Of a stretch of 64,000 nt of DNA, positions 18,698 through 55,151 are shown in pieces (position 1 is the stretch's first letter; every line of letters starts with the position of its first letter). The notes under the pieces were generated by a model, which worked only from the letters and a program-made list of their open reading frames with translations, did not search any database and was not told where the DNA came from. The stretch lies in the IMG/VR virus record IMGVR_UViG_3300012954_000006; one strand, given 5' to 3'. The translations under genes were made by a program, and so were the position numbers. Source of the stretch: an uncultured virus (IMG/VR IMGVR_UViG_3300012954_000006) (Duplodnaviria; Heunggongvirae; Uroviricota; Caudoviricetes).

Positions 18698-18703
18698 TTG
18701 TTG

Positions 18704-24454: not shown

Positions 24455-24477
24455 TTGAAACTGTTTTATAGTATAAT

Positions 24478-24508
24478 TTTGAAATATGAACAATAAAACG
24501 TATATTTG
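24478..24508 (+). promoter_or_regulatory. Bacteroidota promoter TTTG-N19-TATATTTG
   Basis: Both boxes present; near-identical cassette at about 39746-39776. Confidence 0.8.
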
Positions 24509-26301: not shown

Positions 26302-26323
26302 TGATTTTTTTTTAAAGTCATAC

Positions 26324-26379
26324 TTTTGCGTAGCGTGACTATTAACTAAAAATTTAGTTGAAAGCAACGCTACGCAAAA
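26324..26379. repeat. ~55-bp palindromic element TTTGCGTAGC..AACTA-N6-TAGTTGAA..GCTACGCAAA, copy 1
   Basis: Other copies at 41229, 55049, 60266. Confidence 0.8.
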
Positions 26380-26385
26380 ATACAC

Positions 26386-30101: not shown

Positions 30102-30599
30102 TTATTTAAGATTTAAGCGGTCAAATAATAGTTTCTTTAATGCCTGCACACTACCTTCTTCGTTTATGTCGCAAAACACTGTTATCATGCCAAAATGTCT
30201 TTTCATTATGGCATCTATCGCATCATCAGGCAAATCATCTATTCGTTTACCATTTAGTTCTTTCCAGTATTCCAATCCTTCTAAAGCAAACTTCTTTGTT
30301 AGAAAGTCATATATAGCCATCAGTTGATTACTGCCATTGATAGCTTGGTAGGAAGCATAATCTTGTTCATAAAAATAAACTGGTGGTATTGGTATGTTCA
30401 AAATCAAAGATTCGATAAGTCTTGATTTTTGAATATTATTCCAACGTGTTTGCGATTCAAACTCGGAATACAATATATGTTTCTTCTTACCTTTATATGT
30501 ACTGTCTAGTTTTTCAACAAATTCATGTAAATGGAAGTATCCTCGACACACAATGAGCCGATTTTTTCGATATTTTTTATAGAACTCTGTATCTGTCAT
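30102..30599 (-). CDS. DUF262 (ParB-like, GmrS/NsnA-type) domain protein with degenerate DGQQR motif
   Basis: W..QKSRLIESLILNIPIPPVYF then INGSNQL where IDGxQRL is expected. Confidence 0.8.
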   Translation of the reverse strand: MTDTEFYKKYRKNRLIVCRGYFHLHEFVEKLDSTYKGKKKHILYSEFESQTRWNNIQKSRLIESLILNIPIPPVYFYEQDYASYQAINGSNQLMAIYDFLTKKFALEGLEYWKELNGKRIDDLPDDAIDAIMKRHFGMITVFCDINEEGSVQALKKLLFDRLNLK

Positions 30600-30600
30600 T

Positions 30601-30807
30601 TTATTTTTTTGAGTTATTGAAATATTCCTTATTAGGTGAGTTAGGTATTTTGGCATTAGCTATCATTTCCAAATAACTTTCATATTGCCTTATAATATCT
30701 TCTAGCCTATCTAGTTCGCCTAATACTATTTTGGCTACGTTGTCATCGTTTAACATTTGAAGCAACTCACCTTTTTGTCTTAACGTTAGAAATACTGTCT
30801 TTTTCAT
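30601..30807 (-). CDS. Hypothetical protein
   Basis: 68-aa ORF. Confidence 0.5.
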   Translation of the reverse strand: MKKTVFLTLRQKGELLQMLNDDNVAKIVLGELDRLEDIIRQYESYLEMIANAKIPNSPNKEYFNNSKK

Positions 30808-30821: not shown

Positions 30822-31412
30822 TTAAATACTTACAATTGAAAACATCAGATACAATCGCTCATAAATTTCTTCCCACAAATCGTCACTATCTTGTATCATT
30901 TCTTTTGATAATAAAAAGTCATAAATCATATCTCGCAAATTATAAAAATCACTTATAAGCACTTCTTTTTGAAGTATTTTGTCAAAATAAAAGTACACCA
31001 AAATATTATTTAGCCTAAGTACATATATATCTTCTGGCAGTTCCCAATGTGACAAATGAGTTGGTTGGTTTGCATGAGTCATTAAAAGAACGTCCATTAA
31101 ATTAATATTAGCATCTAAAGGATATTGTGCTTTTTGTTCGTGAGTAGATAGGTTAGGTATGTTTATAGCATACACAGGTTTACTATCATGGCAAGCAATT
31201 TTAATGTTTTGGCGTTCTGCTTGATTAAAGTTTCTTGGTATATAGTGCAATGTATAAAGCAGACTATCTGCTATCTGACGTTTTGCACTCTCATCTTTTT
31301 CAATACATTTGTTGAAACTCATTAAATACTGACTAAAATCCCAATTAGATATATCAGTAATAGCTAATATACGGTTGATAATGTTTTGTTGTACGGCTTT
31401 GTATGAAACCAT
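30822..31412 (-). CDS. Hypothetical protein (start corrected to MVSYKA)
   Basis: Promoter box at 31440-31447. Confidence 0.65.
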   Translation of the reverse strand: MVSYKAVQQNIINRILAITDISNWDFSQYLMSFNKCIEKDESAKRQIADSLLYTLHYIPRNFNQAERQNIKIACHDSKPVYAINIPNLSTHEQKAQYPLDANINLMDVLLMTHANQPTHLSHWELPEDIYVLRLNNILVYFYFDKILQKEVLISDFYNLRDMIYDFLLSKEMIQDSDDLWEEIYERLYLMFSIVSI

Positions 31413-31439
31413 GTTTTTGTATTTTATTTTAACGATATA

Positions 31440-31501
31440 CAAAGATAATGTTTTTTTTGATTTTTTCACATTTTTTGATAGTTTTATTTTTCGTATCTTT
31501 G
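31440..31501. promoter_or_regulatory. Divergent promoter pair (TATCTTTG on both strands)
   Basis: Minus 31440-31447; plus 31494-31501. Confidence 0.75.
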
Positions 31502-31512
31502 CTAGAAAAACA

Positions 31513-32919
31513 ATGATAGGCAATACTTATGAAATTAAAAAGGTAGGTAGCAGGTATGTTTATCCTAGAATAAATCAACAAAACAGTATCATTACTTACT
31601 TGCTGTACTTTAAAGAAACGCCTAATACAGTTTATATAGGCATTAGTAAGTCTTTAATGATAAGAATTTCACAGCACATTTCAAGTGTTAAGAGAAATAT
31701 AAAGAAAAATAAAACGCTGTCCTCAAAAGAGGAATGGTTGCACACCAACCTACAAGAGGCTATACTTATAGTAAAGGTTTTGAATTTAAATATCAACATC
31801 GAAAAGGCTCGAAAGGATGAAAAGCAAAAAATAGAACAACATATTAAGAGAGGGTACGAATTGGTAAATGGTAATAATGGAGGAGCTTATTATGACCACG
31901 ATAAGCCTGTATGTCAATACAACAAAGACGGTATGTTTATTAATAAGTACCCATCAATATTATCAGCATCATTAGCAGTAAATATATCAGCAAGTGCTAT
32001 TTCAAAGGCCTGTAGTTGCCCTACTAGAATAAGTGCTAAGTATTATTGGCGGAGAAATTATTTTGAGCAAATAAATGTATCTAAAAAGATAAGTAAAGGA
32101 CAAGTAATAAGTGTCTATTCATTAAATGGCAAAAGAATACAAACATTTACTGATATTAATGCAATATCTAAATTTTTACAATGTCACAAGACAAATGTTT
32201 ACTCCGCTATTGCTAATAGGAATGCATGCAAAGGGTATTTGATTAATTATGGGACTCGAGACAATATTGCAGTAAGTACAAAGTTAAGACGAAGACGAGG
32301 AGGACGTATCGCTTCCTACGAACTTAATGGTAAGTTAAATAATATTTATCAAAACATAAAAGATGCTAGTGAATCTGTAAATGTTAGTTGTCATGCAATC
32401 AATCAAGCCATCAGAGGCTATCGAACGGCAGGCTCGTTACAATGGCGAAGGCATTTAAAAGAGGAGGATGTTGTAAGCAAAATACCTGCTATCAATACTT
32501 ATAAAACAATACCTGTATATTCTTACTGCAAAAAAGGCATTTTTGTTTGCAGTTATGAAAGTGTTAGTGGTGCTGCTACTGCTTCAAATACTTGCGTGAG
32601 TGCCATCAGCAGGGCTTTAGATAAAGGAAAATTAGCTGCTGGCTATCAATGGAGTAAACGAAAAAAGAATGCTATCAAACCATATAGCAGACGAAAGACT
32701 TACTTTGCTTATCATAAAGATGGTTGCTATATAATGTCTTTTGATAGTCCTAAAAGAATAAATGCTTTTTTTTCAAGGGAAAGAGCTATTAGCAGCGTTC
32801 GTAATGCTATAAAAACTAAAACAATGGCTTATGGCTTCCAATGGCGTTTATTTAAAACAGAGAATATTGAGCCTTACAAAAGAAAAGGCAGAAGTAATGC
32901 ACAGAAGGCTATAACTTAA
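31513..32919 (+). CDS. GIY-YIG homing endonuclease with multiple NUMOD1 repeats (start corrected)
   Basis: ITYLL..VYIGIS..RISQH..E; about five K.VxxYxxxG.FIxxYxSIxxA..I..A..AxGYxW repeats. Confidence 0.85.
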   Translation: MIGNTYEIKKVGSRYVYPRINQQNSIITYLLYFKETPNTVYIGISKSLMIRISQHISSVKRNIKKNKTLSSKEEWLHTNLQEAILIVKVLNLNINIEKARKDEKQKIEQHIKRGYELVNGNNGGAYYDHDKPVCQYNKDGMFINKYPSILSASLAVNISASAISKACSCPTRISAKYYWRRNYFEQINVSKKISKGQVISVYSLNGKRIQTFTDINAISKFLQCHKTNVYSAIANRNACKGYLINYGTRDNIAVSTKLRRRRGGRIASYELNGKLNNIYQNIKDASESVNVSCHAINQAIRGYRTAGSLQWRRHLKEEDVVSKIPAINTYKTIPVYSYCKKGIFVCSYESVSGAATASNTCVSAISRALDKGKLAAGYQWSKRKKNAIKPYSRRKTYFAYHKDGCYIMSFDSPKRINAFFSRERAISSVRNAIKTKTMAYGFQWRLFKTENIEPYKRKGRSNAQKAIT

Positions 32920-32961: not shown

Positions 32962-35190
32962 CTAGAACAAAGCCGCTTGTGCTTGCATTGCTACTGCATT
33001 GTTGCAGTTTTTGATAGCTGTTTCGTAATACTTATCTTTGAGTTCGATGCCGATACCTTTTCTGCCCAGCTTCACACTTTCATACACTTCACTTCCAATT
33101 CCTAGAAATGGCGTAAAAACAGTTTCGCCTACGTTGCTCCACATTTGCACACACTTTCTGATGACAGATAGCTGTAATGGTGCAATATGCTTTTCATCAC
33201 CTAATGCAGTACCTTCTCTATTATTTAGTACGTCTGTTCTTTTAATATCCATCCATGTCTGTTGCTTAAACCCTTTTAAGATATTATTGTAATGCTCTAC
33301 ATCTTTAGGCTCGACATTCCACACAGGACTTGCCCATCTTTGCCACGTCTCTAATGGGAAGTTGTCTGTATTTTTGTTGTTTACAGGTGTCCATGATTTC
33401 TCATCCCCTTCCCACTTTCTAAATACTGTACAATACTCTGGCAATCCTACTCCAGTATAGGTACTATCTTTTCTTAGTTGCTTATATAACAGCCTTTGCG
33501 TTTTTGTTCTTTGCATTTCAAGTATGGGGTCTGTCCAAATGTTGATTTTAGAATGGTACTTAAACCCTGCTTCCTGCACACTTCTTGAATGGTCTGCTGT
33601 AAAGTCATACAATCCAGAGTAGCCACTTGAATTTTTATATACTGCCAAATCCTTAGTGTGACAAACCATCAGCCTGCCAGGCCGTAGTATTCGATATAGC
33701 TCCTTTAAAAGAAATCCGTACTGCACAAAAAACTCCTCATGGCTATCATTATTCCCCATATCATGGATATAGTTAGAATAAGTAAATAGAGAACTAAACG
33801 GCGGAGAGTAAATTATCAAATCTACACTATTATCAGGCACTCTTTTTATCTCTATTGTAGAGTCGCCTTTCATCAAATGAAAATCCTTTGTTTTAAATTC
33901 AGCGAAATCATAACTATCTAACAAGCCAAATTTATCCCCATTGATAAACTTATTCATTTCTGACTGCATTTCATTAAATTGAGCTTGCTTACGCTCAATA
34001 GACCTTACTACATTTTCCATAGTATCTGTTGTTATTATGTGAATATTTACATCATTGATTTGCCCAAATCTGTATGAGCGTCTTATAGCTTGGTATAACC
34101 CTTCAAAAGAAAAGTCTAAAGCACAAAATATTTGATTGTAGCAATTTTGGTAATTGAGTCCAAATTGTGCTATCTTCTTTTTGGTAATTAATACTCTAAA
34201 TTCATTTTTTGCAAACCCTAGCAGTTTGGCTTTCTTGACATCTGCCTTTTCCGAACCTGTTACAACTTTAGCGTCTGGGATTAACTTTAAAAGTAGTTTT
34301 TCCTCTGCATTTTGATTAACCCATACGATATATTGCTTATCGTCTGAATTGGCAATATCAGCCGCTAATTGACACCTATCTACTAAGGTTCGCTTTAACT
34401 CCCTATTGAAAGATGTTGCATTGACATTCCCCTCATTGAATAGCAATCCATTATCTCTACGCTTGGTAATCACTTGATGCTCATGGTAAATTAATTGCGG
34501 TAACACATAAGCATCGCCACAATACCCTATATCACTTGGGTTAGAAACCATCATTGCCCATGAGCTAATCCAGCCGTAAAAATCACGTTTTGCATGACCT
34601 TTTAGCCTGTAATTATTCATGCCTTCGTCTCGCACAAACCATTTGGCTCTCATGTCTTGAGCATCTAAGACACCTAAAAACTCTGAATGATTACCTATTT
34701 CATTCAAGTCATTTGGACTTGGTGTAGCAGTACAGGCTAGTTTGTATTCCGTGTCAGCGAACAACTCAATGATGAGCCGCTTATATTTGCCTGTAAAATT
34801 CTTTAAAATAGAACTCTCATCTAAAACTACACCGCTATAAATGGATACATCTATATTGTGAAGTTGCTCATAATTGGTAATATCAACATTGGATATGTCA
34901 ATATTGAACTTGCAAGCCTCTATTATTGTTTGCTCAGTTACTGCCAGAGGTGCTAATATCAGGACTCTACCTTTCGTGTGTTTGGCTACTTGATTAGCCC
35001 ACTCTAGCTGCATAAATGTCTTTCCTAGTCCGCAATCCATGAATAGTGCAAATCTCCCTTTAGATAATGCAGTCTTTACAGCATGTTTTTGCCAGTCAAA
35101 CAGCAAGGGATTTAGTAGGGGGAGGGGTATATCAAATCCGCTATGGATGTGACGTTTTGTTTTAGTTTCTAAAAATTCATTATAATTCAT
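32962..35190 (-). CDS. SNF2-type helicase fused to N4/N6 DNA methyltransferase
   Basis: DCGLGKT, LDESSILK, TATPSPND, QAIRRSYRFGQ; then YSPPF and TPFLGIGSE. Confidence 0.9.
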   Translation of the reverse strand: MNYNEFLETKTKRHIHSGFDIPLPLLNPLLFDWQKHAVKTALSKGRFALFMDCGLGKTFMQLEWANQVAKHTKGRVLILAPLAVTEQTIIEACKFNIDISNVDITNYEQLHNIDVSIYSGVVLDESSILKNFTGKYKRLIIELFADTEYKLACTATPSPNDLNEIGNHSEFLGVLDAQDMRAKWFVRDEGMNNYRLKGHAKRDFYGWISSWAMMVSNPSDIGYCGDAYVLPQLIYHEHQVITKRRDNGLLFNEGNVNATSFNRELKRTLVDRCQLAADIANSDDKQYIVWVNQNAEEKLLLKLIPDAKVVTGSEKADVKKAKLLGFAKNEFRVLITKKKIAQFGLNYQNCYNQIFCALDFSFEGLYQAIRRSYRFGQINDVNIHIITTDTMENVVRSIERKQAQFNEMQSEMNKFINGDKFGLLDSYDFAEFKTKDFHLMKGDSTIEIKRVPDNSVDLIIYSPPFSSLFTYSNYIHDMGNNDSHEEFFVQYGFLLKELYRILRPGRLMVCHTKDLAVYKNSSGYSGLYDFTADHSRSVQEAGFKYHSKINIWTDPILEMQRTKTQRLLYKQLRKDSTYTGVGLPEYCTVFRKWEGDEKSWTPVNNKNTDNFPLETWQRWASPVWNVEPKDVEHYNNILKGFKQQTWMDIKRTDVLNNREGTALGDEKHIAPLQLSVIRKCVQMWSNVGETVFTPFLGIGSEVYESVKLGRKGIGIELKDKYYETAIKNCNNAVAMQAQAALF

Positions 35191-35845: not shown

Positions 35846-35883
35846 TATATTTTTTTTAAATAATTTTTTAGTGATAAATACCC

Positions 35884-36008
35884 TTTTGGCATATACTCAA
35901 ATGCGATAAAACAACTTTGAAGTATATTGTCGTTAATATCTTTTGAAATAACAAAAATACTACGGAATCGTTCAATACCTGCAAATACGATATTTTACAA
36001 TCAACAAA
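35884..36008 (-). pseudogene. Decayed duplicate of 3' half of gene 36317-36667
   Basis: Shares TATATTGTCGTTAATATCTTT and TACCTGCAAATACGATATTTTAC with 36356-36480. Confidence 0.8.
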
Positions 36009-36055
36009 CTACAATTATTTGTTTTTTTAAAAAACTATTGAAATATCACTTTTAA

Positions 36056-36301
36056 CTAACTTAATTTAAATAGCTTGTCAATTTCCTTTTCCCATTCAAA
36101 GTCTTTTTCGCTATTGGTATATACTCTACTGTGACCGAATTTTATTTTTATTTGCATATAATAAAAATCGGGATTGACTTCAAGCTCTTTAGTAAACTCG
36201 CTGTCTAGGTATTCAATCACTTTTATATGATTAATGTCTAATCCATAATACCCTTGTAATAAATAATTTCCCCATTTAGTGTTGAAATCCCATACAGTCA
36301 T
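36056..36301 (-). CDS. Conserved small phage protein
   Basis: QIKIKFGHSRVY resembles the QxKEKFGxLRxY family. Confidence 0.65.
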   Translation of the reverse strand: MTVWDFNTKWGNYLLQGYYGLDINHIKVIEYLDSEFTKELEVNPDFYYMQIKIKFGHSRVYTNSEKDFEWEKEIDKLFKLS

Positions 36302-36316
36302 AAATGTATTTGTTTT

Positions 36317-36667
36317 TCATTTCTTTAAATAACTATTTTCTGATGGTAGGTAATATTTTGGCACATTCTCAAATGCAACAAAACGACTGCGAATTATATT
36401 GTCGTTAATATCTTTCGATACAACAAAAATACCTATGGCATCGTTCAGTACCTGCAAATACGATATTTTACCATCAACAAAGTGTTGCAGTATTTTTAAA
36501 TCAACAATACTATGTAAGTATGTTAGTATGTTTTCTTCTATATTATCTTCCGCTAAAGATACTATGATGTTTTGCCCTATTCTGTTTTTGCCACTCCATA
36601 AAACAGGCTGCTCATCAAAATGCAATACTTGTTTGTTTCTCGTAATGCTATATATTGGACTGTTCAT
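36317..36667 (-). CDS. Hypothetical protein (DUF6575-like)
   Basis: DxPxL..N..G..F..G.I..YLP.....L pattern. Confidence 0.55.
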   Translation of the reverse strand: MNSPIYSITRNKQVLHFDEQPVLWSGKNRIGQNIIVSLAEDNIEENILTYLHSIVDLKILQHFVDGKISYLQVLNDAIGIFVVSKDINDNIIRSRFVAFENVPKYYLPSENSYLKK

Positions 36668-37401: not shown

Positions 37402-39582
37402 TTAAGGCAAAACTCTAAAATTAACAGTCGTGAGTTCTTGCCCCCCCAAAATATAGTTTAAGTTTTCTATGTAGGCATACGCCATTTGCCCACACACTTG
37501 TGTTACTATTTTAGCACTACTCATTATCAAACTATAAATATCTGCATCACACAAATATACTTCACAACTCAATAGAAAACCACAGTCGATAATCTCAAAT
37601 TCTCGACACCAAAAGCGATTAATTAAACCTGTGCCATGCCTATCAGAAAAATCAAGGCTAAACCTATCTATATCATAAAAATAAGCATAACTATAACGTC
37701 CTAACCTAGTAACACCATCACCTAGCGTATAAGTATATACATAAGGTCTGTCGTGTATCAATATCCGAGGTGTTGTTTTGTCATTGGGTGCATCGCCTAT
37801 TTGTGCCACAGGAATCAATACACCACCATCTGCTGGAAACTCGCCCATAGGCGTAGCTGAAAAAATGCCACCACCATTAAAGTCTGTATCTTCATCTTTT
37901 AGGTTTGCATCTTGCAATTCATAGCATCCCCTGCCTAGCGTTATCTCATTTCCTCGCTCCTCCTCATATTCCTTAATAAAATCGTCACTATCATTATTAT
38001 ATCCTATACACAAAAAGCGAGTATAGCGATTGCTAATACGCTCTTCGGTGCAAGACTTGCAATCTATCTTGTCTCGCCAATCCTCCGCTTTTTTATAGAC
38101 ATTCCAATCGTCACCATAAAAATCTTTGCTGTGTATCATACACACTTCTTTATTGTCATTATCTGTCAAAAACAGAAAGCCATATTTTTTTTGTAAGAAA
38201 TCAATGGTGTCTATAACCTTTATATTTAGGCAGTTTAAATCTAAACTCACAGGATTACCTAAGCAAACGCCTTGTTCTCCGCTACTCTTATAGCCTACAT
38301 AGATACTTAGCTTAGGCGAAATATCATCATTATTAAAAGGGTCGTCTAAAGAACCATTATTATAAATATATAGTACATCTGGATTGGTGCTTAGATAAGA
38401 ATCTTCATTAAATATTTCGTATGTTTCGCCATCGAAAAAGAAAGACAAAAAGTTGTTGCTATTAGCGTCTGTCGCTCCGCTAAAATCAAAGACATATCCT
38501 GCTGTCAAGCACTCACAGTCTAGTTCTTTGGTAACAGTAATTCTTTCTGTTAAGTTTCTAATCTCCGTTACAGAAGTAGTCGTATTTGTGCCAAAGCCTT
38601 GCACGACTACTTGCATAGCAATAGTTAGGTTAATGAGTATCGTAACTTCATACTTCCCTTTCGTGATAGCACACAAGTTACCATCTCTTTGCATGGTATG
38701 AGAATAGTCACTAAAGGTAGTACCGTTGATATTCCATTGAGCTATACCATTTTCATCATCTGGTAGCAGTTGCACATTAGAGCCATTACCTAATATATTG
38801 CCATATATCACAGGTATCAAATCAGAAGGGTCTTGACTGCCATAGATTAAGTTATTCGTTCCTTCATTATTGTAAAAGTCAAAGAAAAAGGCTTCGTCTA
38901 ATGTTGTACCTGCTAATCCGACATTCTCGTGAAGGTCTGCTCCTACAATATTTTGACGTTCATCTAAAACCACGCCATTGAAAAAAGGAATAATCAAATC
39001 CCTTATCTCATTACTCAATGCGATGTCGCCTTTATACTTAAAAGTGTAACCAATAGCATCAAAAGCAGCGATAAGGTGCTGTTTGATAAAGTAGGCAGGT
39101 TTTAGTTCTAAACTGCCACCGTAGTTGATGGTAGGATAAGTATATAGTTCGCCTGTGTCGCCATTCCATGTTTGAGTTATTGATGTATGTATTGTTGTAT
39201 AATTATGTTTACCATAAGTTATTAAATCGCAAAATTCCTTATCTCCTAAGAGATTACGCCATGCCAACTCGTCTCCTATAACCTGAATATTCCTATCACA
39301 GTTTCTCGCACGTTTATTAACTTGTATCAGTCGCAATCCTTTCAATATCTCTAAGCCACTAGATTTGATGATAGTGGATATTTGGGAGCGTTCACACTTT
39401 TCTAGCGATTTCAATAACTCAAAGTTATTCGGAGTGTCACGCACACAGATAGGAAAGGTATAGTCACTAGATACGGCTGCTATATTGCTAAATATCTCGT
39501 TGGTTTTGATAATCTCAATTCGTTGGTCTTCACACAGGTCTAAGGATTCGCCGGATGGAAGTACACATACACATACGCTCAT
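37402..39582 (-). CDS. Cys-rich tail/baseplate-like structural protein, outside main virion operon
   Basis: LDL..I....F.NI....SDYTF....TPNN, YTYPTINYG, LKPAYFIK..AAF..IGY pattern of Bacteroidota phage tail proteins; own promoter 39611-39618. Confidence 0.65.
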   Translation of the reverse strand: MSVCVCVLPSGESLDLCEDQRIEIIKTNEIFSNIAAVSSDYTFPICVRDTPNNFELLKSLEKCERSQISTIIKSSGLEILKGLRLIQVNKRARNCDRNIQVIGDELAWRNLLGDKEFCDLITYGKHNYTTIHTSITQTWNGDTGELYTYPTINYGGSLELKPAYFIKQHLIAAFDAIGYTFKYKGDIALSNEIRDLIIPFFNGVVLDERQNIVGADLHENVGLAGTTLDEAFFFDFYNNEGTNNLIYGSQDPSDLIPVIYGNILGNGSNVQLLPDDENGIAQWNINGTTFSDYSHTMQRDGNLCAITKGKYEVTILINLTIAMQVVVQGFGTNTTTSVTEIRNLTERITVTKELDCECLTAGYVFDFSGATDANSNNFLSFFFDGETYEIFNEDSYLSTNPDVLYIYNNGSLDDPFNNDDISPKLSIYVGYKSSGEQGVCLGNPVSLDLNCLNIKVIDTIDFLQKKYGFLFLTDNDNKEVCMIHSKDFYGDDWNVYKKAEDWRDKIDCKSCTEERISNRYTRFLCIGYNNDSDDFIKEYEEERGNEITLGRGCYELQDANLKDEDTDFNGGGIFSATPMGEFPADGGVLIPVAQIGDAPNDKTTPRILIHDRPYVYTYTLGDGVTRLGRYSYAYFYDIDRFSLDFSDRHGTGLINRFWCREFEIIDCGFLLSCEVYLCDADIYSLIMSSAKIVTQVCGQMAYAYIENLNYILGGQELTTVNFRVLP

Positions 39583-39672
39583 AGTAAGTATTTTGTAATC
39601 AGTAGTCTTGCAAAAGTAGGCTTTTATAGTGAATTATGCAAAACCATTCGATGTTGCTTATGTCTATTTATT

Positions 39673-39718
39673 TCTGCGTTCCATTCATAGAACGCTTATT
39701 CTATAAATAGAACGCAGA
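39673..39718. repeat. Tandem TTCTA-N4-TAGAA element, copy 2
   Basis: TCTGCGTTC..CGCTTA..GAACGCAGA; outer arms changed in concert relative to copy 1. Confidence 0.8.
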
Positions 39719-39745
39719 GCTTTTAGTGCTGTTTTATAGCGTAAT

Positions 39746-39776
39746 TTTGAAATATGGATAATAAAACGTATATTTG
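39746..39776 (+). promoter_or_regulatory. Bacteroidota promoter driving plus-strand island
   Basis: TTTTGAAATATGG..AATAAAACGTATATTTG, duplicate of 24478-24508 cassette. Confidence 0.8.
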
Positions 39777-39811
39777 CATATCCTAAACTAAATAATACAA
39801 GTACACTTAAA

Positions 39812-40585
39812 ATGATTAAAAACATTTCTGAAACAATCAGCGAAATAATGCAACAAGTGTGCAGTATCAAACATAATATAGATATTTCTGTAAAGTCACA
39901 ACACGAAAAAGACCCTTTGATGCTTGGCTTTACCTTTGGAACAATATACTCTGCTGCCCATAGATGCGAAAAGAAGCTAACAGAGCTTAACAAGCTGTTA
40001 GGACAGCCAAAAACAATAAGAAAAGACGATGCCTTATAGCTGTGTAAAGACTATGGCATCAAAGAAGTTTGGTTTAACTATTTTGAATTGACCAACTTGC
40101 CAGAAGATGTGGTTTGGAATGTTATGCTTAACATTGAAAATGGCATAATCGGTGTGAGTACAGGTTTGATGGCATACACTCACTATCAAGGCAATTATTA
40201 TATCGGGTCTTACGAAGAAATCAATTCAAAACTTCCTGATTTGGTTGAAGTGATTTTAGCATTTGGACTACTAAATAATCTTACTGAACACAAGAGTTTT
40301 ATTACCTACCATTATGGAGTTGCAGGGCATCTTACTGTCGATAGTATGCTTAGAAAGAACTCTGGTAGCTTTAAAATAGAATATATTAAACGACCAAATA
40401 CAAATAAATTGGATTTTATTCATTCGATACAATCAGATTTACAATCAGGCAAGTGGCATTTTTTGAAAAACAATAAGTCACTTGGCAACATAATCAATCA
40501 ATTAACTAACTATCCTCATGTTGAAAATGACAAGACTGCTATGTCTTTGGCATTGATACACGAGTTTGTTAGTAATCATCAATAA
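39812..40585 (+). CDS. Helical N-domain plus inactive terminase nuclease-like domain, interrupted by in-frame TAG 40037-40039
   Basis: ORFs 39812-40039 and 40088-40585 share a frame (DAL*LCKDYGIKEVWFNYF). NK..I..LQSGK..IINQLTNYP..END mirrors TerL C-terminal DK..R..IESG..F..E..FPxxxHDD without the acidic residues. Confidence 0.6.
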
Positions 40586-40603
40586 TACAATAAAATACAC
40601 AAA

Positions 40604-41224
40604 ATGGACAAATCAAGAAAAACAGATGGTGCTGCTGCCATTTTAGATTATCTAGGTGATGCGAAAGTTATGCTATCAGAGATAGCAAAGGTAGCTGACA
40701 CTCCTCCAGTAATGGCTTTTACATTGGGGCGAATTTATGAGCTTATTAGAGACGCACAAGCAATAGCAACAGACTTATATCACAAGAATGAAATAGCTGC
40801 AAGCAATGAAGTGACAACAGACAACTCTGTATCTAAAACATCGTCTAAGTTTACCAAAGAAGGGAAACTCAAATATTATTTTGATGTTCGTACAATTGAG
40901 CAAGGACATCATTATCAAGTACCACAATATCAACTTGCAGGACTTGATAGCACCGAAATACTGGAAAGCTTGCCATCACAACCGCTTGATATAAAGTTTG
41001 TTCGAGGTAGTGTGTCAAAAGATGACAACACTCTACCAAAGACTGGCACTTTGCACGAACATTTATTAGTAGTAATGATACAAGACTTGCGGTATAAAAA
41101 TGCGCTAGTACCATCTACACAAACAACTATGGTTATTCAAAAGTTAGAGGAGGCATACGACTTAATTTTAGAGCGTAAAAGCGATAGAACCAATCGTGGA
41201 GTACTTGGAACTTATGAAAAATAG
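40604..41224 (+). CDS. tad1: Tad1-like cyclic-nucleotide sponge (anti-Thoeris/CBASS) with N-terminal extension
   Basis: HHY..IKFVRG..G..E.LL.V.I..L....PS......KLEEA......R..DR..RGVLGT matches recalled Tad1 family. Confidence 0.75.
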   Translation: MDKSRKTDGAAAILDYLGDAKVMLSEIAKVADTPPVMAFTLGRIYELIRDAQAIATDLYHKNEIAASNEVTTDNSVSKTSSKFTKEGKLKYYFDVRTIEQGHHYQVPQYQLAGLDSTEILESLPSQPLDIKFVRGSVSKDDNTLPKTGTLHEHLLVVMIQDLRYKNALVPSTQTTMVIQKLEEAYDLILERKSDRTNRGVLGTYEK

Positions 41225-41228
41225 TGAC

Positions 41229-41282
41229 TTTGCGTAGCATCACTTTCAACTATATTTATGGTTACTACTGATGCTACGCAAA
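41229..41282. repeat. ~55-bp palindromic element, copy 2 (inverted)
   Basis: TTTGCGTAGCATCA..TGATGCTACGCAAA. Confidence 0.8.
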
Positions 41283-41380
41283 AAAGCAGTTTCCGAAACC
41301 TCATAAGTGGAAGGAAAAGAGGGCGTAGTGGTTCGTCCAACAAACAAAAGCTTGTGAATCTACTTAGCAAACCATCGTTT
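41283..41380 (+). ncRNA. Candidate structured RNA motif, copy A
   Basis: AAAGCAGTTTCCGAAA..AGAGGGCGTAGTGGTTCGTCCAACAA..TTGT; recurs at 42372, 60381, 61226. Confidence 0.55.
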
Positions 41381-41416
41381 CTTCGCCGACTGAAAATCCT
41401 AAAAGCAAACTTAAAT

Positions 41417-41728
41417 ATGACAAAAACAAACATCGTAAGCAGAGCCACATTAGATATTTTTGAAGACAACAAACAATTTGTGCAAGAGGCTAATAAAATA
41501 CTCCTACAAATAGAAAAGACAAAGGCTTTGAAAAATGATTTCAAGGTAATGCTTTCTAATCATATTGCGTTTTTGGGTAAAGATAAGAACCACGAATCCG
41601 TAAAGCAAATTAATACTTTAATTGGCATCTGTGACGTTACATTAACAGCAGCACAATATGTACTGCGACAGGAATTTGTAGATTTGACCGTTAATAAAAT
41701 AGTTCCTGATAATTATGCAAATGATTAA
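41417..41728 (+). CDS. Hypothetical protein (start corrected to MTKTNI)
   Basis: Upstream ORF extension overlaps repeats. Confidence 0.6.
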   Translation: MTKTNIVSRATLDIFEDNKQFVQEANKILLQIEKTKALKNDFKVMLSNHIAFLGKDKNHESVKQINTLIGICDVTLTAAQYVLRQEFVDLTVNKIVPDNYAND

Positions 41729-42395
41729 GTATTACGACAAACACAACAAGCTATTAAAGCGAGGGTATATAGTTAGGCTGTCGATAGGCAATGATAATCT
41801 TATTGGTATAGTATCTTGCTATAAAAAGCAATGGTACATATACTGCTTGTATCACACCTACAACGGAGTTCAATATGATAAAGAGTGTATTGTTTTGGGT
41901 AACTTGCCTTACGTTGTTGTTGATGGGAAACGCACACTAAGAGATGTCACAATAGAAAAAGATAAGCCCTGTATTACCGAATGTATTTACAATTACAGTT
42001 TTATATACTCTGGCAAAACAAGGTTTAAAGACAAAAAAGAGCGTGACTTTTGGGTAGGATACATGTGTCATTGGAATGGTTGTATTTACAACAATACATA
42101 TTGCCATCTGTTTCTGTATAAACAAAATAGCCAACATAAAGACACATTTTGTAATTATGGCTGCGACTTTATTCCTTTAATCATTAGGGAAGTTTATAAT
42201 GACAGATGCTACTATATATTATCATTGTTCACACCTGACGATGAAACCATTAGCGATATGTATTTTCATAAGCAACATTTACTGGAAGTGAAAAGTATTA
42301 TAAGTAAGTATTACAAAAATAATGAATGGTTACAAATGTTGTATCGAAAAGATTATATCTCACATCTACACAAAGCAGTTTCCGAAACTTCATAA
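41715..42395 (+). CDS. Hypothetical protein (YopX-like N-terminus)
   Basis: YDKHNKLLKRGYIV resembles DKNGKEIYEGDIV. Confidence 0.55.
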   Translation: MQMIKYYDKHNKLLKRGYIVRLSIGNDNLIGIVSCYKKQWYIYCLYHTYNGVQYDKECIVLGNLPYVVVDGKRTLRDVTIEKDKPCITECIYNYSFIYSGKTRFKDKKERDFWVGYMCHWNGCIYNNTYCHLFLYKQNSQHKDTFCNYGCDFIPLIIREVYNDRCYYILSLFTPDDETISDMYFHKQHLLEVKSIISKYYKNNEWLQMLYRKDYISHLHKAVSETS

Positions 42396-42469
42396 GTGGA
42401 GGAAATAGAGAATGTAGTGATTCATCCATCAAGGTGTACACCTTGTAAATAATAAGCATCACAACTGCA
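42372..42469 (+). ncRNA. Candidate structured RNA motif, copy B
   Basis: Same motif; stem CAAGGT-GTAC-ACCTTG replaces ACAAGT-GAAA-GCTTGT. Confidence 0.55.
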
Positions 42470-42499
42470 AACGTTATTTTTGAAAGAACATAATACAGT

Positions 42500-43411
42500 A
42501 TGAAATTACTAGATTTAATAAAAGCAACTAAACCTAACTTTGTTATATCAAAACCAATAAAAAAAATATGCAAAAAGTTAGATGATTTTGTAAGTGGCAA
42601 AATAAAAAACCTAATCATAGCAATCCCCCCTAGAACATGTAAAACAGAGCTAGGTGTGCGTAGTTTTATCCCATTGTTGTTGGCAGCAAAAAACAATGGC
42701 AACATAGCCATTGCTGCTCAAACGACATATCGAGCAGAACAACTAGCATTGGATGTAAGAAGAATTATTAACAGTAGTGAATACGAGTCGTTTCTACAAC
42801 AACATGGATATAATAACAGTCATTTAAGTCACATTAAAGATAGTTATTGAGAGAATACAAGGCAAAAAAGGTTATACACTACGACGGTTGCAAGCAGTAT
42901 AGTGGGTAAGAATATTAAATATTTGGTAATGGATGACATCAGTTCTAATGAGCTACTTTATGAGAATAACAATAAAACATTCGAGCAATATATTTATTCA
43001 TTACGAACTAGATTGAATAATAATAGTCAGCAACTTGTAATTACTAGCAGGAGTGCAAGGTTCGATTTTGTAGGAATGTTGCTACATTTAGATTTAGATG
43101 ATTGGACGTATTTAGCTATTCCTGCTGTAAAACAACGCAAGAAATCTCAAGCTAAGTCTTTATGGAAATATAAGAACCTATATGATTTGAAATACTTCTA
43201 TAACAATGCCACCCATTCAGGTGTAAGCATATTTAGTTCTTTTTACCAACAAGACCCCAAAGAGACTGATATTGATAAACTCATTGAAGTTGTGTTGTAT
43301 CATAAATACAGAGATAAATATACTAGACCACGTCAAAAAGCACGTATCATTAATACATTAGAAGGCGTTATTAAGAAAATGGAATCCCCAAAAAGACAGC
43401 CAACTATTTAA
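42500..43411 (+). pseudogene. Degenerate terminase large subunit ATPase domain, in-frame TGA 42848-42850, no nuclease domain
   Basis: NLIIAIPPRTCKTEL (cf. MPPRHGKSEL), LVMDD, ITSR..FDFVGMLL (cf. TRWHEDDLxG), LAIPA, FSSFYQQDP; both ORFs in the same frame. Confidence 0.8.
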
Positions 43412-43712
43412 TGCAATGAACAGTAAAGTAAATGTAATTGAACTACCAAAAGCTAAACAGGTGGAATTTGCTAAATACATTGAGCTTAATGTTTCTTAGT
43501 TATAGACAATAACTTAAAAACAAAGACAGATTCAAAACCCAAGTAATTCTTAAATGGAACATGGTGGCGGTTGATTGCACTAACTGATAGCAAGGTAGGA
43601 AGTGCCGTTCTTGTTCGTCAAAATTTCAAAGGCCGAAAGGATATGAGCGTTAGAAGCCAACGATAAAACTCTTTAAGTGAGGAACAATCAAATCTGTTAA
43701 AAAAACAAAAAT

Positions 43713-43958
43713 ATGAAACGATACTTAATCTTCAAAGGAACCTATTATTACCCTATTGGTGGAATGGAAGATTTTTTCAAAGATGTAGGTAGTATTGAAT
43801 CTTACAAAGAAGCAATAGATAATTTCGTATTACAGGAGTACGAAAAAGAAAAAGACATTTTTAGTAAACAGGAGTTTTTAAAATACTTTTATGAAGAATT
43901 TTGGTTTCAAGTTTACGATACCGTTAAGCAGGAAATAGTATATAAAACATATAGGTAA
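43713..43958 (+). CDS. Conserved small phage protein
   Basis: KRYLIF...YYPxGGMxDF motif. Confidence 0.7.
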   Translation: MKRYLIFKGTYYYPIGGMEDFFKDVGSIESYKEAIDNFVLQEYEKEKDIFSKQEFLKYFYEEFWFQVYDTVKQEIVYKTYR

Positions 43959-43968
43959 AACAATAATA

Positions 43969-44205
43969 ATGACTAAAGAAGAGATAAAGACACTAAGTAA
44001 AGGTAGCTTAATTTTCTTTGCTGGCTATACATATAAGTTTGCCGAAGTTAAAGAGTTTCCTCATGGAGTAATGATAGGCATATATGATGAACACGACACT
44101 AGCCACATTGATTATCTTAACCCAGAAAATTGTGAAATTGTAAACCTATGCCATAATTGTCAAAATGGTTGCCCAACTTGCAACGGTTATGGTTGGTATT
44201 GCTAG
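43969..44205 (+). CDS. Small protein with C-terminal CxxC/CxxCxGxG zinc motif
   Basis: CHNCQNGCPTCNGYG. Confidence 0.65.
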   Translation: MTKEEIKTLSKGSLIFFAGYTYKFAEVKEFPHGVMIGIYDEHDTSHIDYLNPENCEIVNLCHNCQNGCPTCNGYGWYC

Positions 44206-44240
44206 GTAAAATATTACCTCAATGCAATAGCGATAAATAA

Positions 44241-44283
44241 TAAAGTGTAAGGCTGTGGTTTAAAAATACAGCCTTACACTTTA
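44241..44283. terminator. Bidirectional terminator between convergent operons
   Basis: TAAAGTGTAAGGCTGT..ACAGCCTTACACTTTA 16-bp stem. Confidence 0.8.
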
Positions 44284-44343
44284 CGAATCTTTAGCGATAC
44301 CAAACTACTATAATGAAACAGCTAACTTTCATATTGTAATTAA

Positions 44344-44787
44344 TTAAAAATATAACCCATACCCTATACATGCACTAATTGCTACATGGTCATTGATAGA
44401 AGGAATATTAGCTTTACTCCATATCAAGTCTGGCAAAGACAGTTTAATAAAATCCATAATCAAGTCAGCAAAATCGCTTCCGTAAAACTTCCCACCTTCC
44501 ATATAATTATCTACATCAATACCATTGTCAATCAGCTTTTGCTTTGCACTATCCGAAATATAGCAATCTCCATACTCTGTGCAAATGTGCAAGGCAGAAC
44601 CATACCTAGGTAACTTCCCTCCTGTAAAGTCTCTACTGTGATTGAATTGTACGCCTACTAACTTACAACTAGCTTTATAAGCTGCTCTAATTTCCTCAAT
44701 AGGCTTATTGACATCGCAAATAAAATCCTCTGTTATGCCATGTCCATCTTGAGAACAGTCTCCTAGTGTTAATTTAACTAATGCCAT
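44344..44787 (-). CDS. Conserved phage hypothetical protein
   Basis: LGDxSxDGH..AYKASC..IGYGLY motifs. Confidence 0.7.
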   Translation of the reverse strand: MALVKLTLGDCSQDGHGITEDFICDVNKPIEEIRAAYKASCKLVGVQFNHSRDFTGGKLPRYGSALHICTEYGDCYISDSAKQKLIDNGIDVDNYMEGGKFYGSDFADLIMDFIKLSLPDLIWSKANIPSINDHVAISACIGYGLYF

Positions 44788-44826
44788 TTTTTGTTTTTTA
44801 AATTTCTATAAAGATAATGTTTTTTA

Positions 44827-45477
44827 TTAAGTCAATATCTTTCTATCTTTTATCAAATAATCCACTTTATCAAAAGCAGATTTCCAAAAGTCAATATCTG
44901 TGGTCTTAATGGTACAATCTATTTTTTGATTTTTCACTCCTCTAAGCAAATCAATAAAACAAATTAATTGAACAACATTTTTTTTGTCTGCATTAACATC
45001 ATAATACTTTATTGTTTTCGTTGGTTCGCTTTCCAATATATTAATCAACACATCCTCTATTGTGTCAAGTCCGTTCATATTATTTACCTGAACAAGCGAT
45101 ATAGTAATATTACTGTCTTTTGGCTCGGTGCGAAAAAATGCTATTTCCTCGCCATCCTCATCTGTTTCAAAAACAACACTCACATTTAACTTTTCAAGTT
45201 GTAATATCCATTCCACTAAAATTTTGATGCTATCCATATTAGGCTGTTCCTCGTCAAGCCTTAGTACGCAAAAGTGATTACGATAAGGAGCTAGTTGTGG
45301 TTTTATTTGATGGAGTGCATCAATAAAATATTTATCTGGATTACCATAACACTCTACATATCTATCTTTGTAAGTCAAGCCTACACATGGGTATTTAGCA
45401 ATACCATAAGTACCATTAAATTCAGCCGTTAAGCCATGTTTATTAGCAAATGCTATAATTATACTCCTGTAATTCAT
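44827..45477 (-). CDS. Hypothetical protein; N-half related to 24535-24978
   Basis: FANKHGL..G..PCVGL..YVE..LVEWILQL.KLNVSV vs FAERFGL..G..SCVGL..WVE..LSNWVDDL.TLNVVV. Confidence 0.65.
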   Translation of the reverse strand: MNYRSIIIAFANKHGLTAEFNGTYGIAKYPCVGLTYKDRYVECYGNPDKYFIDALHQIKPQLAPYRNHFCVLRLDEEQPNMDSIKILVEWILQLEKLNVSVVFETDEDGEEIAFFRTEPKDSNITISLVQVNNMNGLDTIEDVLINILESEPTKTIKYYDVNADKKNVVQLICFIDLLRGVKNQKIDCTIKTTDIDFWKSAFDKVDYLIKDRKILT

Positions 45478-54984: not shown

Positions 54985-55151
54985 CAAAGATAATGATTTT
55001 TTTTGATTTTTCATATTTTTTAGCATTTTTTTTACACAAAACTATCCTTTTTGCGTATCGTCAGTAGTAGCAATATTTATAGTTGAATGCAATGATTGAC
55101 AATAATATATTTGACTGCCCTTTGCAATATCAACAGAAATTACTACCTTTG
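54985..55151. promoter_or_regulatory. Divergent promoter cassette with central palindromic element (copy 3, 55049-55102)
   Basis: Minus box 54985-54992, plus TACCTTTG 55144-55151; cassette duplicated at 60193-60367. Confidence 0.75.

What the first reader, a model, noticed from the sequence alone, without database searches (positions are those of the whole stretch)
39746..43411. Plus-strand island pairing Tad1 with separate, inactive terminase nuclease and ATPase domains
Seen: one promoter heads a TerL nuclease-like domain without acidic catalytic residues, then a Tad1-like gene, then a TerL ATPase-like domain with altered Walker A (PPRTCKT) and no nuclease. The domain order is reversed relative to a real terL, and the island is far from, and opposite in strand to, the virion operon. 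Known: Avs STAND NTPases sense terminase large subunit, and anti-defence genes cluster. Inference: these are terminase mimics that bind sensors without triggering them, or inhibitors of competing phages' packaging.
Basis: partly seen in the sequence, partly recalled or inferred. Interest (0 to 1): 0.85.

Follow-up and report, generated by a model that had tools for sequence, protein, structure and literature searches.

The report
Split, catalytically dead terminase beside Tad1
A large marine phage carries, in a small accessory operon, the two halves of a DNA-packaging enzyme in swapped order and without their catalytic residues, flanking a Tad1-type immune-signal sponge gene, which suggests enzyme mimicry for counter-defence, though nothing has been tested.

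Summary
40040-40585 is a terminase large subunit (TerL) nuclease domain: 38% identical to an intact 539-aa TerL (E 4e-35), and the model's best PDB match is PhiV-1 TerL. It lacks four conserved acidic residues. 40604-41224 ends in a Tad1-family domain (profile against PDB Tad1 chains, E 2e-7). 42500-43411 is a TerL ATPase domain with no nuclease.

- an in-frame TGA (42848-42850) cuts the ATPase;
- an in-frame TAG (40037-40039) lies six codons before the nuclease homology, so that ORF can only start at TTG 40088;
- two unknown ORFs lie between Tad1 and the ATPase;
- Walker A "PPRTCKT" is within family variation; the lost motifs are NWHH and R.HE.D.

The halves match complementary parts of one TerL profile (positions 15-282 and 284-455). 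Each keeps under half of the family-conserved residues yet stays almost free of stops. A neutral simulation makes that very unlikely, so both evolved as selected non-catalytic proteins. Plain pseudogene debris is disfavoured but not excluded.

An Avs-decoy role is untested. The published Avs3 mechanism, which reads active-site residues, argues against simple decoy binding. No intact terL lies in the window. The rest of the 163-193 kb contig was unreachable. Earlier scan notes report dead TerL-ATPase copies beside Tad1 in other phages.

The parts
39669..39718 (.). 50-nt palindromic element. It is one of 3 copies in the window (the others at 24402 and 61877) and marks the left edge of the island.
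   Evidence: Repeat family D4; inverted repeat I6; extra short high-depth contigs match it.
39746..39776 (+). Promoter-like site TTTG-N19-TATATTTG (Bacteroidota type). It is the only such site on the + strand inside the island.
   Evidence: 19 matches in the window against 4.23 +/- 2.27 expected. It is shared at 92% with 24461-24508 (family D14). That this is the Bacteroides promoter consensus is recalled, not tested.
39812..40039 (+). 75-aa first ORF ending in TAG (40037-40039), in the same frame as the nuclease-like piece. It has a weak likeness to the N-terminal extension of the Tad1-like protein.
   Evidence: BLASTP E 0.004 over 25 residues; no family match.
40040..40585 (+). TerL nuclease (RNase H-like) domain without its catalytic acidic residues. 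Homology starts at 40058; the first usable start codon is TTG at 40088.
40604..41224 (+). 206-aa protein with an about 85-aa N-terminal extension and a Tad1-family domain (residues about 90-206).
   Evidence: phrog_2428 E 2.6e-15; Atlas lead; relatives P0019-P0021; profile against PDB Tad1 E 2.2e-7; Cellulophaga phage phi17:2 gp072 38% identical.
41227..41286 (.). Long hairpin element, one of 4 copies in the window (the others at 26323, 55048 and 60265).
   Evidence: Family D2; inverted repeat I1; other contigs of the run end in it.
41283..41376 (+). 61-nt leader element (copy 1) plus the adjoining 38-nt element. The same pair precedes the HNH endonuclease gene at 60382-60475.
   Evidence: Families D3 and D8 (2 exact-pattern matches, 0 expected).
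41417..41728 (+). Unknown ORF. The longest frame starts at 41258, but its first 40 codons are the repeated non-coding elements.
   Evidence: The choice of start codon is inference.
41715..42395 (+). Unknown 226-aa Cys/His-rich ORF.
   Evidence: no family. The same protein appears in the JGI, ENA and Logan assemblies.
42372..42432 (+). 61-nt leader element (copy 2, 84% identical to copy 1), 68 nt before the ATPase start codon.
42500..43411 (+). TerL ATPase domain interrupted by an in-frame TGA at 42848-42850. Homology ends near 43276, followed by a 44-aa tail with no detectable homology.
43713..44205 (+). Two small ORFs that end the island: 81 aa (phrog_1411) and 78 aa with CxxC pairs.
44241..44283 (.). 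21-bp-stem hairpin between the island and the convergent minus-strand genes.
   Evidence: Inverted repeat I4. The only Rfam matches are chance miRNA-like hits on this hairpin.

Best explanation
The island holds the two halves of one terL gene of a rare TerL lineage (closest intact relative P0005). The gene was split at or near the inter-domain linker and its halves were placed in swapped order, probably by recombination among the repeated regulatory cassettes that bound the island's units.

Neither half can still work as an enzyme of DNA packaging. The nuclease half has lost its metal-binding acidic residues. The ATPase half has lost the NWHH and R.HE.D motifs.

Both reading frames were nevertheless kept open while more than half of the family-conserved residues were replaced. 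That means they evolved as selected, non-catalytic, TerL-shaped proteins (pseudoenzymes).

The nuclease-like protein is transcribed from the island's single recognisable promoter, directly ahead of a Tad1-family sponge. The most likely role is therefore an accessory one in phage-host or phage-phage conflict that works by binding: the protein occupies a partner that normally meets TerL, such as an immune sensor, a small terminase subunit, a portal or DNA.

The ATPase half now carries one nonsense codon. It is either being lost or is made only by read-through.

Shown here: identity of the parts, loss of motifs, and open frames beyond neutral expectation. Inferred: selection for a binding role, the rearrangement route, and the conflict function.
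For: Parts come from one gene.
- An HMM of 5 intact TerLs, run against all six-frame pieces of the window, hits only three pieces. These cover profile positions 15-113, 137-282 and 284-455.

Loss of catalytic and conserved residues.
- Searches show the residue changes.
- In leave-one-out tests, intact TerLs keep 43 of 48-53 residues conserved in the others. The window nuclease keeps 20-24.
- The window ATPase keeps 20 of 46.

Frames kept open.
- In a neutral simulation started from the relative's gene, falling only to 70% identity gives a mean of 4.1 stops in 175 codons, with P(no stop) 0.011. For the ATPase part it gives 6.3 stops in 281 codons.
- Observed: 0 stops in 181 codons and 1 stop in 303 codons, at 38% and 26-29% identity.

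Fold and assembly.
- The nuclease half still folds confidently: pLDDT 84.5, with TerL nucleases as top PDB matches.
- The arrangement is not an assembly artefact. The same proteins occur in JGI, ENA and Logan assemblies, and one Logan contig spans 38500-45000 with no differences.

Context.
- There is a Tad1-family gene between the halves and a single promoter at the head.
- Repeated cassettes bound the units.

Literature (passages read).
- Stand-alone TerL-ATPase-like phage proteins exist (T4 vs.8, Ksap1/2). Their authors suggest an anti-defence role (PMC13601566).
Against: - One in-frame stop lies in or directly before each TerL-derived frame (TGA 42848; TAG 40037).
- The nuclease ORF has no ATG. 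It must start at TTG 40088, inside the region of homology.
- The ATPase model is poor (pLDDT 51.5).
- Only one genome carries the island. The JGI and ENA/Logan versions have the same protein sequence, so no dN/dS or population test was possible.
- The simulation ignores indels, uses one starting sequence and uses a simple mutation model.
- No partner, no expression data and no binding evidence exist.
- The loss of conserved residues is not concentrated on acidic residues: 2 of 7 acidic against 17 of 36 other invariant positions are kept. This is also what relaxed constraint would give.
Confidence: 0.5

Rival explanations
1. The pieces are plain pseudogene debris. A second or foreign terL was broken up by cassette shuffling in a hyper-variable accessory region and has no present function. 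Only the Tad1-like gene is functional.
For: - There is an in-frame TGA inside the ATPase fold, between Walker A and Walker B.
- A TAG lies directly before the nuclease homology, and that ORF has no ATG start.
- More than half of the conserved residues are lost in both halves.
- The permuted order makes no sense for a working gene.
- The region is bounded by repeats also found beside homing-endonuclease genes.
- The ATPase model has low confidence.
Against: - Neutral decay deep enough to replace about 55% of conserved positions should have produced many stops. The simulation gives a mean of 4-8 in the nuclease part and 6-15 in the ATPase part. Observed counts are 0 and 1.
- All gaps against intact relatives are in frame.
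- The nuclease half gives a confident, complete fold.
Confidence: 0.3
2. The two proteins are decoys that bind TerL-sensing Avs proteins (Avs1-3) without triggering them, or that block rival phages' packaging.
For: - Both are TerL-shaped and catalytically dead, and they stand beside a Tad1-family anti-defence gene.
- The best PDB match of both models is the PhiV-1 TerL chain taken from its complex with Avs3. This shows fold likeness only.
- Authors of PMC13601566 suggest that TerL-ATPase-like accessory proteins may be anti-defence proteins.
- Earlier scan notes report dead TerL-ATPase copies beside Tad1 in other phages. These notes are unchecked.
Against: - SeAvs3 is stated to recognise TerL active-site residues and the bound ATP, and EcAvs2 to use the TerL ATP site (PMC13601566 passages). 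Exactly these features are lost here, so binding is not expected to be kept.
- T4 vs.8, the published stand-alone TerL-ATPase-like protein, activates EcAvs2; it does not block it.
- The host and its defence repertoire are unknown.
Confidence: 0.12
3. The in-frame stops are read through, either by a suppressor tRNA encoded elsewhere in the genome or by leaky termination. The real products would then be a 257-aa fusion of an N-terminal helical module to the nuclease-like domain, and a 303-aa ATPase-like protein, possibly timed late in infection.
For: - Homology runs straight across the TGA. Read through, the phrog_4758 match rises from E 2.4e-15 to 5e-23.
- The 75-aa ORF and the nuclease piece share a frame.
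- The 75-aa ORF weakly resembles the N-terminal extension that is fused to the Tad1 domain next door.
Against: - The window uses all three stop codons at the ends of long ORFs: 51 TAA, 12 TAG and 7 TGA among ORFs of at least 120 aa.
- No other domain-internal stop was found. The other same-frame pairs are ordinary adjacent genes.
- There is no tRNA in the window.
- Two different stop codons would need two suppressors.
Confidence: 0.1
4. The two ORFs are the phage's working terminase, encoded as separate subunits.
For: - No other terL is detectable in the 64-kb window.
- PHROGs holds half-length 'terminase large subunit' families (phrog_4758 with 243 positions and phrog_5573 with 250 positions).
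Against: - The nuclease lacks 4 conserved acidic residues.
- The ATPase lacks the NWHH and HE motifs and carries a stop codon.
- The island lies in an accessory region on the strand opposite the virion genes.
- About 100-130 kb of the genome is unseen.
Confidence: 0.03

Closest known systems
Large terminase subunit (TerL) of tailed phages, Terminase_6N/6C-type. The closest intact relative is P0005 (539 aa, uncultured marine contig). Solved examples matched are PhiV-1 TerL (8DGC), D6E, G20c, P22, SPP1, T4/RB49 gp17 and Sf6 gp2.
   Same: - Both domains are homologous to it: E 4e-35 for the nuclease and E 2e-27 for the ATPase.
- The nuclease fold matches.
- Walker A Lys-Thr, Walker B Asp-Asp and the YQQxP motif are kept.
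   Different: - It is split into two genes in swapped order, 1.9 kb apart.
- The catalytic acidic residues, the NWHH motif and the R.HE.D motif are lost.
- There is an in-frame TGA.
- It lies outside the virion module.
T4 vs.8 and Ksap1/Ksap2: stand-alone TerL-ATPase-like accessory proteins of phages (PMC13601566 and PMC11564622; passages read).
   Same: These are phage accessory proteins that resemble only the ATPase half of TerL. Their function is unknown, and their authors suggest an anti-defence role.
   Different: - vs.8 keeps its Walker A and B motifs and triggers EcAvs2.
- Here further motifs are lost, a dead nuclease half is present as well, and a Tad1-family gene lies between them.
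- No sequence comparison with vs.8 was made.
Tad1 (Thoeris anti-defence 1), PDB 7UAV and 8KBB-8KBH; Pfam PF24729 Acb2_Tad1_hairpin.
   Same: The C-terminal 115 residues of the 206-aa protein match a Tad1 profile comparison at E 2.2e-7 and share the KF.RG...G.L...LL...EEA..W...R..dR...VlGT pattern.
   Different: - It has an extra N-terminal extension of about 85 residues.
- The window protein itself stays below Pfam's threshold.
- Ligand-binding residues and oligomer state were not examined.
Vestigial nuclease domain of the phi29 packaging ATPase gp16 (recalled from the literature, not read here).
   Same: It is a TerL-type nuclease fold that has lost catalysis but is retained.
   Different: In phi29 the domain stays fused to an active ATPase and works in packaging. 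Here it is a separate accessory gene.

Membership tests
TerL nuclease domain (Terminase_6C / RNase H-like) | Sequence homology to the C-terminal domain of TerL | tested here: met
   E 4.5e-22 to 1.3e-4 to four TerLs; BLASTP E 4e-35; HMM E 2.7e-33. No Pfam or PHROG family hit was found.
TerL nuclease domain (Terminase_6C / RNase H-like) | RNase H-like fold of terminase nucleases | tested here: met
   AF2 pLDDT 84.5; Foldseek hits 8dgc_E at E 1e-7 and many terminase nucleases; Atlas TM 0.87.
TerL nuclease domain (Terminase_6C / RNase H-like) | Metal-binding acidic residues of the active site | tested here: not met
   D31N, D39V, E91H and D168M against 4 intact relatives. Of 7 invariant acidic positions, 2 are kept.
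TerL nuclease domain (Terminase_6C / RNase H-like) | Fused downstream of the ATPase domain in one polypeptide | tested here: not met
   It is a separate ORF that lies 1.9 kb upstream of the ATPase piece.
TerL ATPase domain (Terminase_6N-type ASCE ATPase) | Sequence homology across the whole domain | tested here: met
   phrog_4758 E 5e-23; phrog_38 E 3.7e-22; BLASTP E 4e-28; 125 phage records. Pfam PF03354 reaches only 13.6-14 bits against a cut-off of 23.7.
TerL ATPase domain (Terminase_6N-type ASCE ATPase) | Walker A lysine-Ser/Thr and Walker B acidic pair | tested here: met
   K48-T49 and D145-D146 are kept. The Walker A glycine is Cys, but intact P0007 also lacks it.
TerL ATPase domain (Terminase_6N-type ASCE ATPase) | Other family-invariant motifs (NWHH before Walker A; R.HE.D after strand 4) | tested here: not met
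   NWHH reads SKPI and HE reads AR. Of 46 residues invariant in 3 intact TerLs, 20 are kept. The functional roles of these motifs are not established here.
TerL ATPase domain (Terminase_6N-type ASCE ATPase) | Uninterrupted reading frame | tested here: not met
   TGA at codon 117 (42848-42850). It is present in a 63x Logan contig with no differences.
Tad1 (Thoeris anti-defence 1) | Sequence or profile similarity to solved Tad1 proteins | tested here: met
   The profile of 4 relatives hits 6 distinct Tad1 sequences in the PDB at E 2.2e-7 to 5.4e-6. The single sequence gives no PDB hit.
Tad1 (Thoeris anti-defence 1) | Pfam PF24729 Acb2_Tad1_hairpin | tested here: inconclusive
   1 of 4 aligned members matches (E 6.6e-5). 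The window protein does not.
Tad1 (Thoeris anti-defence 1) | Binding of gcADPR or cyclic oligonucleotides; inhibition of Thoeris | not testable with these tools
Ligand-contact residues were not mapped.
   Nothing was run. Published recognition features (active-site residues, ATP) are the ones lost here.

The most novel reading that the evidence does not exclude
The island is a counter-defence module built on molecular mimicry. Catalytically dead copies of each TerL domain, possibly carried on a shared N-terminal helical module (the 75-aa ORF and the extension of the Tad1-like protein), engage or blind host sensors that watch for the terminase, while the adjacent Tad1 sponge removes alarm nucleotides. 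Together with the scan's earlier, unchecked notes of dead TerL-ATPase and capsid-fragment genes beside Tad1 in unrelated phages, this would define a widespread, undescribed class of 'structural-protein mimic' anti-defence genes.
Probability: 0.17. Interest if true: 0.85.

Novelty: new variant of a known kind. Interest (0 to 1): 0.6.

Why it matters
Bacterial immune sensors such as Avs1-3 and Upx detect phages through the terminase because it cannot easily change. If phages keep dead, terminase-shaped proteins in anti-defence operons, that is a way to answer pattern-recognition immunity that has not been described. It would also give a function to the published orphan TerL-ATPase-like proteins (T4 vs.8, Ksap1/2).

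This locus is a clean test case. Both halves are present, both are dead, and a recognisable Tad1-family gene sits between them.

If the pieces instead prove to be debris, the locus still shows how repeated promoter and hairpin cassettes reshuffle genes in a large marine Bacteroidota-type phage.

Tried and rejected
- Alternative genetic code. Rejected: all three stops end long ORFs. The other same-frame ORF pairs are ordinary neighbouring genes.
- Introns or structured RNA. Rfam found nothing at gathering thresholds and only chance miRNA-like hits on the terminal hairpin at E<=1. The GC-richer stretch 43400-43715 folds no better than shuffles (z +0.89). No tRNA was found.
- Split intein. The sequence at both junctions shows no Cys/Ser or His-Asn boundary (read; no tool test).
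- Remnants of the missing halves. The TerL HMM found no further piece in any frame. MAFFT aligned the 75-aa ORF and the ATPase tail to TerL segments, but no statistic supports this.
- Whole genome and relatives.
  - No genome is held for this window.
  - The window ends are not in viral contigs.
  - No close relatives of the ATPase piece, the nuclease piece or the neighbouring 726-aa protein are in viral contigs.
  - The metagenome scan returned only the 21-kb contig of P0005's near-twin.
  - There is no DNA match in the phage collection, and no protein match for the nuclease piece or the 552-aa virion-region ORF.
  - A Tad1-bearing 94-kb IMG/VR phage has no related TerL piece.
- Sequencing runs. 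One holder was listed, the likely source, and no RNA holder was listed. Laying its contigs showed no alternative joint that would rejoin the halves.
- Composition and codon usage. Island genes look like the backbone, so this is uninformative about origin.
- Cellulophaga phage phi17:2. Only its Tad1-like gp072 matches the window. Its 865-aa TerL and neighbours do not.
- Literature. Searches for terminase decoys, inactive paralogues and split or second terminases listed no paper describing a dead stand-alone TerL nuclease domain. Subscription-only papers are not covered.
- Complex prediction was not used. No specific binding pair is claimed.

Full report
**Setting.** The window is AT-rich (GC 0.30-0.40) and phage-like. 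Nearly all long ORFs lie on the minus strand. They include an S49 prohead protease at 17744-18706, an SSB, a helicase-methylase fusion and an NAD ligase. Its proteins occur on contigs of 163,418 and 192,865 bases, so about two thirds of the genome is out of sight. No whole genome is held. The only run that holds the DNA is a marine metagenome and is probably the source. A Bacteroidota-type promoter pattern (TTTG-N17-21-TAnnTTTG; the consensus is recalled) is enriched: 19 matches against 4.23 +/- 2.27 expected, with 0 of 100 shuffles reaching 19. The plus-strand island runs from a palindrome at 39669-39718 and one such promoter at 39746-39776 to a hairpin at 44241-44283.

**The nuclease-like piece.** ORF 40088-40585 has no Pfam or PHROG match. 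Exhaustive phmmer against 1.84 billion representatives found 5 proteins at E<=0.001. One is the ORF itself. The other four are TerLs of 383-539 aa, all matched in their C-terminal parts. BLASTP against the best of them (P0005) gives 38% identity over 181 columns, E 4e-35. The homology begins at 40058. That is six codons after an in-frame TAG (40037-40039) and ten codons before the first start codon, TTG 40088.

The ESM Atlas model matches Terminase_6C regions at TM 0.87. My AF2 model, built from a 5-sequence alignment, has pLDDT 84.5 and pTM 0.85. Its best PDB matches are the PhiV-1 TerL chain of 8DGC (E 1e-7), then the HCMV, D6E, G20c, P22, SPP1 and RB49 terminase nucleases. At positions where four intact relatives all carry D/E, the window reads D31N, D39V, E91H and D168M. 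Two of seven invariant acidic positions survive.

**The ATPase-like piece.** ORF 42500-42850 alone matches phrog_4758 (terminase large subunit) at E 2.4e-15. ORF 42902-43411 alone matches nothing. The two are in one frame, separated by a TGA at 42848-42850. Read through, the match becomes E 5e-23 over profile positions 31-239 of 243. BLASTP to intact TerLs gives E 4e-28 and 2e-27. tblastn finds TerL genes in 125 phage records, and in 63 of them the match covers at least 80% of the query.

Walker A keeps Lys-Thr, and Walker B keeps Asp-Asp. The Cys that replaces the Walker A Gly is within family variation, because intact P0007 has Ser-Ser there. What is lost is the NWHH motif, the HE of R.HE.D and a GG pair. 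Of 46 residues invariant in three intact TerLs, 20 remain. Homology ends near 43276 (YQQDP). A 44-residue tail follows with no detectable homology, and there is no nuclease. The AF2 model is poor (pLDDT 51.5). TerL ATPases still head its PDB matches (8dgc_E, E 2e-5), but a poor model limits what that means.

**One gene, two halves.** I built an HMM from five intact TerLs and ran it with filters off over 3,088 six-frame pieces of the whole window. It hit only three pieces: 42494-42847 (profile positions 15-113), 42851-43408 (137-282) and 40040-40582 (284-455). The halves are therefore complementary to within about ten residues. BLAST weakly aligns the linker of P0005 to both the ATPase tail and the nuclease head, so a short overlap cannot be excluded. 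No other terL-like sequence exists in the window.

**The gene between them.** The C-terminal 115 residues of ORF 40604-41224 match phrog_2428 (E 2.6e-15). They are 48-51% identical to three short proteins, one of which carries PF24729 Acb2_Tad1_hairpin. A profile of the four sequences hits six distinct Tad1 sequences in the PDB (7UAV, 8KBB-8KBH) at E 2.2e-7 to 5.4e-6. The single sequence hits neither the PDB nor PF24729. Its N-terminal 85 residues are an extension that is absent from two of the three relatives. They weakly resemble the 75-aa ORF that heads the operon (E 0.004 over 25 residues). In Cellulophaga phage phi17:2 the homologue gp072 (38% identity, E 2e-23) lies two genes upstream of that phage's unrelated 865-aa terL.

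**Repeats and rearrangement.** The island consists of units bounded by elements that recur in the window:
- the palindrome and promoter pair is also at 24402-24508;
- the hairpin at 41227-41286 is also at 26323, 55048 and 60265;
- the 61-nt element occurs at 41283 and 42372 (84% identical; 2 matches against 0 expected) and at 60382, ahead of an HNH endonuclease gene.

Short high-depth contigs and the end of another contig of the run match these elements. Such repeats offer a route for cassette shuffling. Which events produced the swapped order is not resolved. One Logan contig of 35,879 bases covers 38500-45000 without a difference. The island's proteins are the same in the JGI, ENA and Logan assemblies. 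An assembly artefact is therefore unlikely, and no second strain is available.

**Decay or selection.** In leave-one-out tests, each intact TerL keeps 43 of 48-53 residues that are identical in the other three. The window nuclease keeps 20-24 of the same sets. The window copy is 37.6% identical to P0005 but only 24-26% to the others, whereas P0005 is 39-45% identical to them. The window copy is therefore the fast-evolving branch.

I asked whether such loss could be neutral. Random substitutions were applied to the P0005-type gene of locus L001 until protein identity fell to a set level. At 70% identity this gave a mean of 4.1 stops in 175 codons, with P(no stop) 0.011. At 38% it gave 8.4 stops. 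For the ATPase part it gave 6.3 stops at 70% and 14.9 at 30%. Observed counts are 0 stops in 181 codons and 1 in 303. The model is crude: no indels, one starting sequence, a simple mutation model. The gap is nevertheless large. I conclude that both halves diverged while selection kept them translatable, which means as proteins with a non-catalytic role.

Three observations count against this:
- the loss is not concentrated on acidic residues;
- each frame has a stop in or right before it;
- the nuclease ORF lacks an ATG.

**Genetic code.** Recoding is not the explanation. All three stops end long ORFs. The other same-frame neighbours are ordinary adjacent genes, or the second piece starts in a repeat hairpin. 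No tRNA lies in the window. Read-through by a suppressor encoded elsewhere cannot be excluded.

**Comparison with what is known.** Passages of PMC13601566 state the following:
- EcAvs2 is triggered by the ATPase domain, with ATP bridging the interface.
- Such proteins might be anti-defence proteins.

PMC11564622 (passages) notes that some factor may prevent terminase recognition during infection. Stand-alone TerL-ATPase-like accessory proteins are therefore a known kind with unknown function. My three literature searches listed no paper on a dead stand-alone nuclease half. Because the features that Avs2 and Avs3 read are the ones lost here, simple competitive decoy binding is not the obvious mechanism. 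Evasion of those sensors by a protein that has another binding job fits equally well.

**Earlier scan notes.** Unchecked notes from this scan report catalytically dead TerL-ATPase copies beside Tad1 in rumen phages and in a 213-kb jumbo phage. They also report capsid or terminase pieces on a helical carrier beside Tad1-like genes in other phages. I could not compare sequences with them; look-ups by sequence found nothing. They are leads that make a recurrent association plausible. They are not support.

**A relative with two terL genes.** The 21-kb contig that holds P0005's near-twin carries two intact TerL paralogues, of 539 and 491 aa, 5 kb apart among ParB-like genes. Duplicated terL genes therefore exist in this lineage.

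**Verdict.** The "mimic" idea survives as the best reading in its general form, a selected dead TerL-shaped protein in an accessory operon with Tad1. The specific Avs-decoy mechanism is untested and somewhat disfavoured. A recent slide into pseudogene status, at least for the ATPase half, is a serious rival.

Noticed in passing
window 24402-24508, 39669-39776, 61877-61926; 26323-26382, 41227-41286, 55048-55107, 60265-60324; 41283-41343, 42372-42432, 60382-60442: Three families of repeated intergenic elements recur across the window: a palindrome with a promoter, a long hairpin, and a 61-nt leader. They bound the small plus-strand cassettes. They look like mobile regulatory cassettes that could drive gene shuffling.
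   Followed up: partly
window 31375-32919 (+), 22010-22702 (-), 60559-61095 (+): There are three homing-endonuclease-type genes: GIY-YIG with NUMOD1, T5orf172/MUG113, and HNH. Two of them lie on the minority plus strand.
   Followed up: no
L001 6041-7660 and 12517-13992: A 21-kb marine metagenome contig carries two intact, 35%-identical terL paralogues 5 kb apart. Between and around them lie three ParB-like genes, an HNH gene and a tRNA methyltransferase-like gene.
   Followed up: partly
L005 (Cellulophaga phage phi17:2, record 84469-85479): The unannotated gp072 of this cultured phage is a Tad1-family homologue. It lies two genes upstream of terL in the packaging operon.
   Followed up: partly
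window 35863-36481: A tandem duplication with a period of about 472 nt (80-88% identity) covers small minus-strand ORFs (families D5 and D13).
   Followed up: no
window 32962-35190 (-): A 742-aa fusion joins an SNF2-type helicase to an N6/N4 DNA methylase. A GmrSD_N-like ORF lies nearby at 30102-30656.
   Followed up: no
window 22712-23797 (-): A 361-aa ORF has a weak retroviral-type aspartyl protease match (PF00077 E 1.1e-5, 26 bits against a cut-off of 20.7). This is unusual for a phage.
   Followed up: no
window 39812-40036 and 40604-40860: The 75-aa leader ORF and the N-terminal extension of the Tad1-like protein share a short motif (PLMLGFTFGTIY against PPVMAFTLGRIY; E 0.004). This could be a common helical module placed ahead of both effector domains.
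   Followed up: partly
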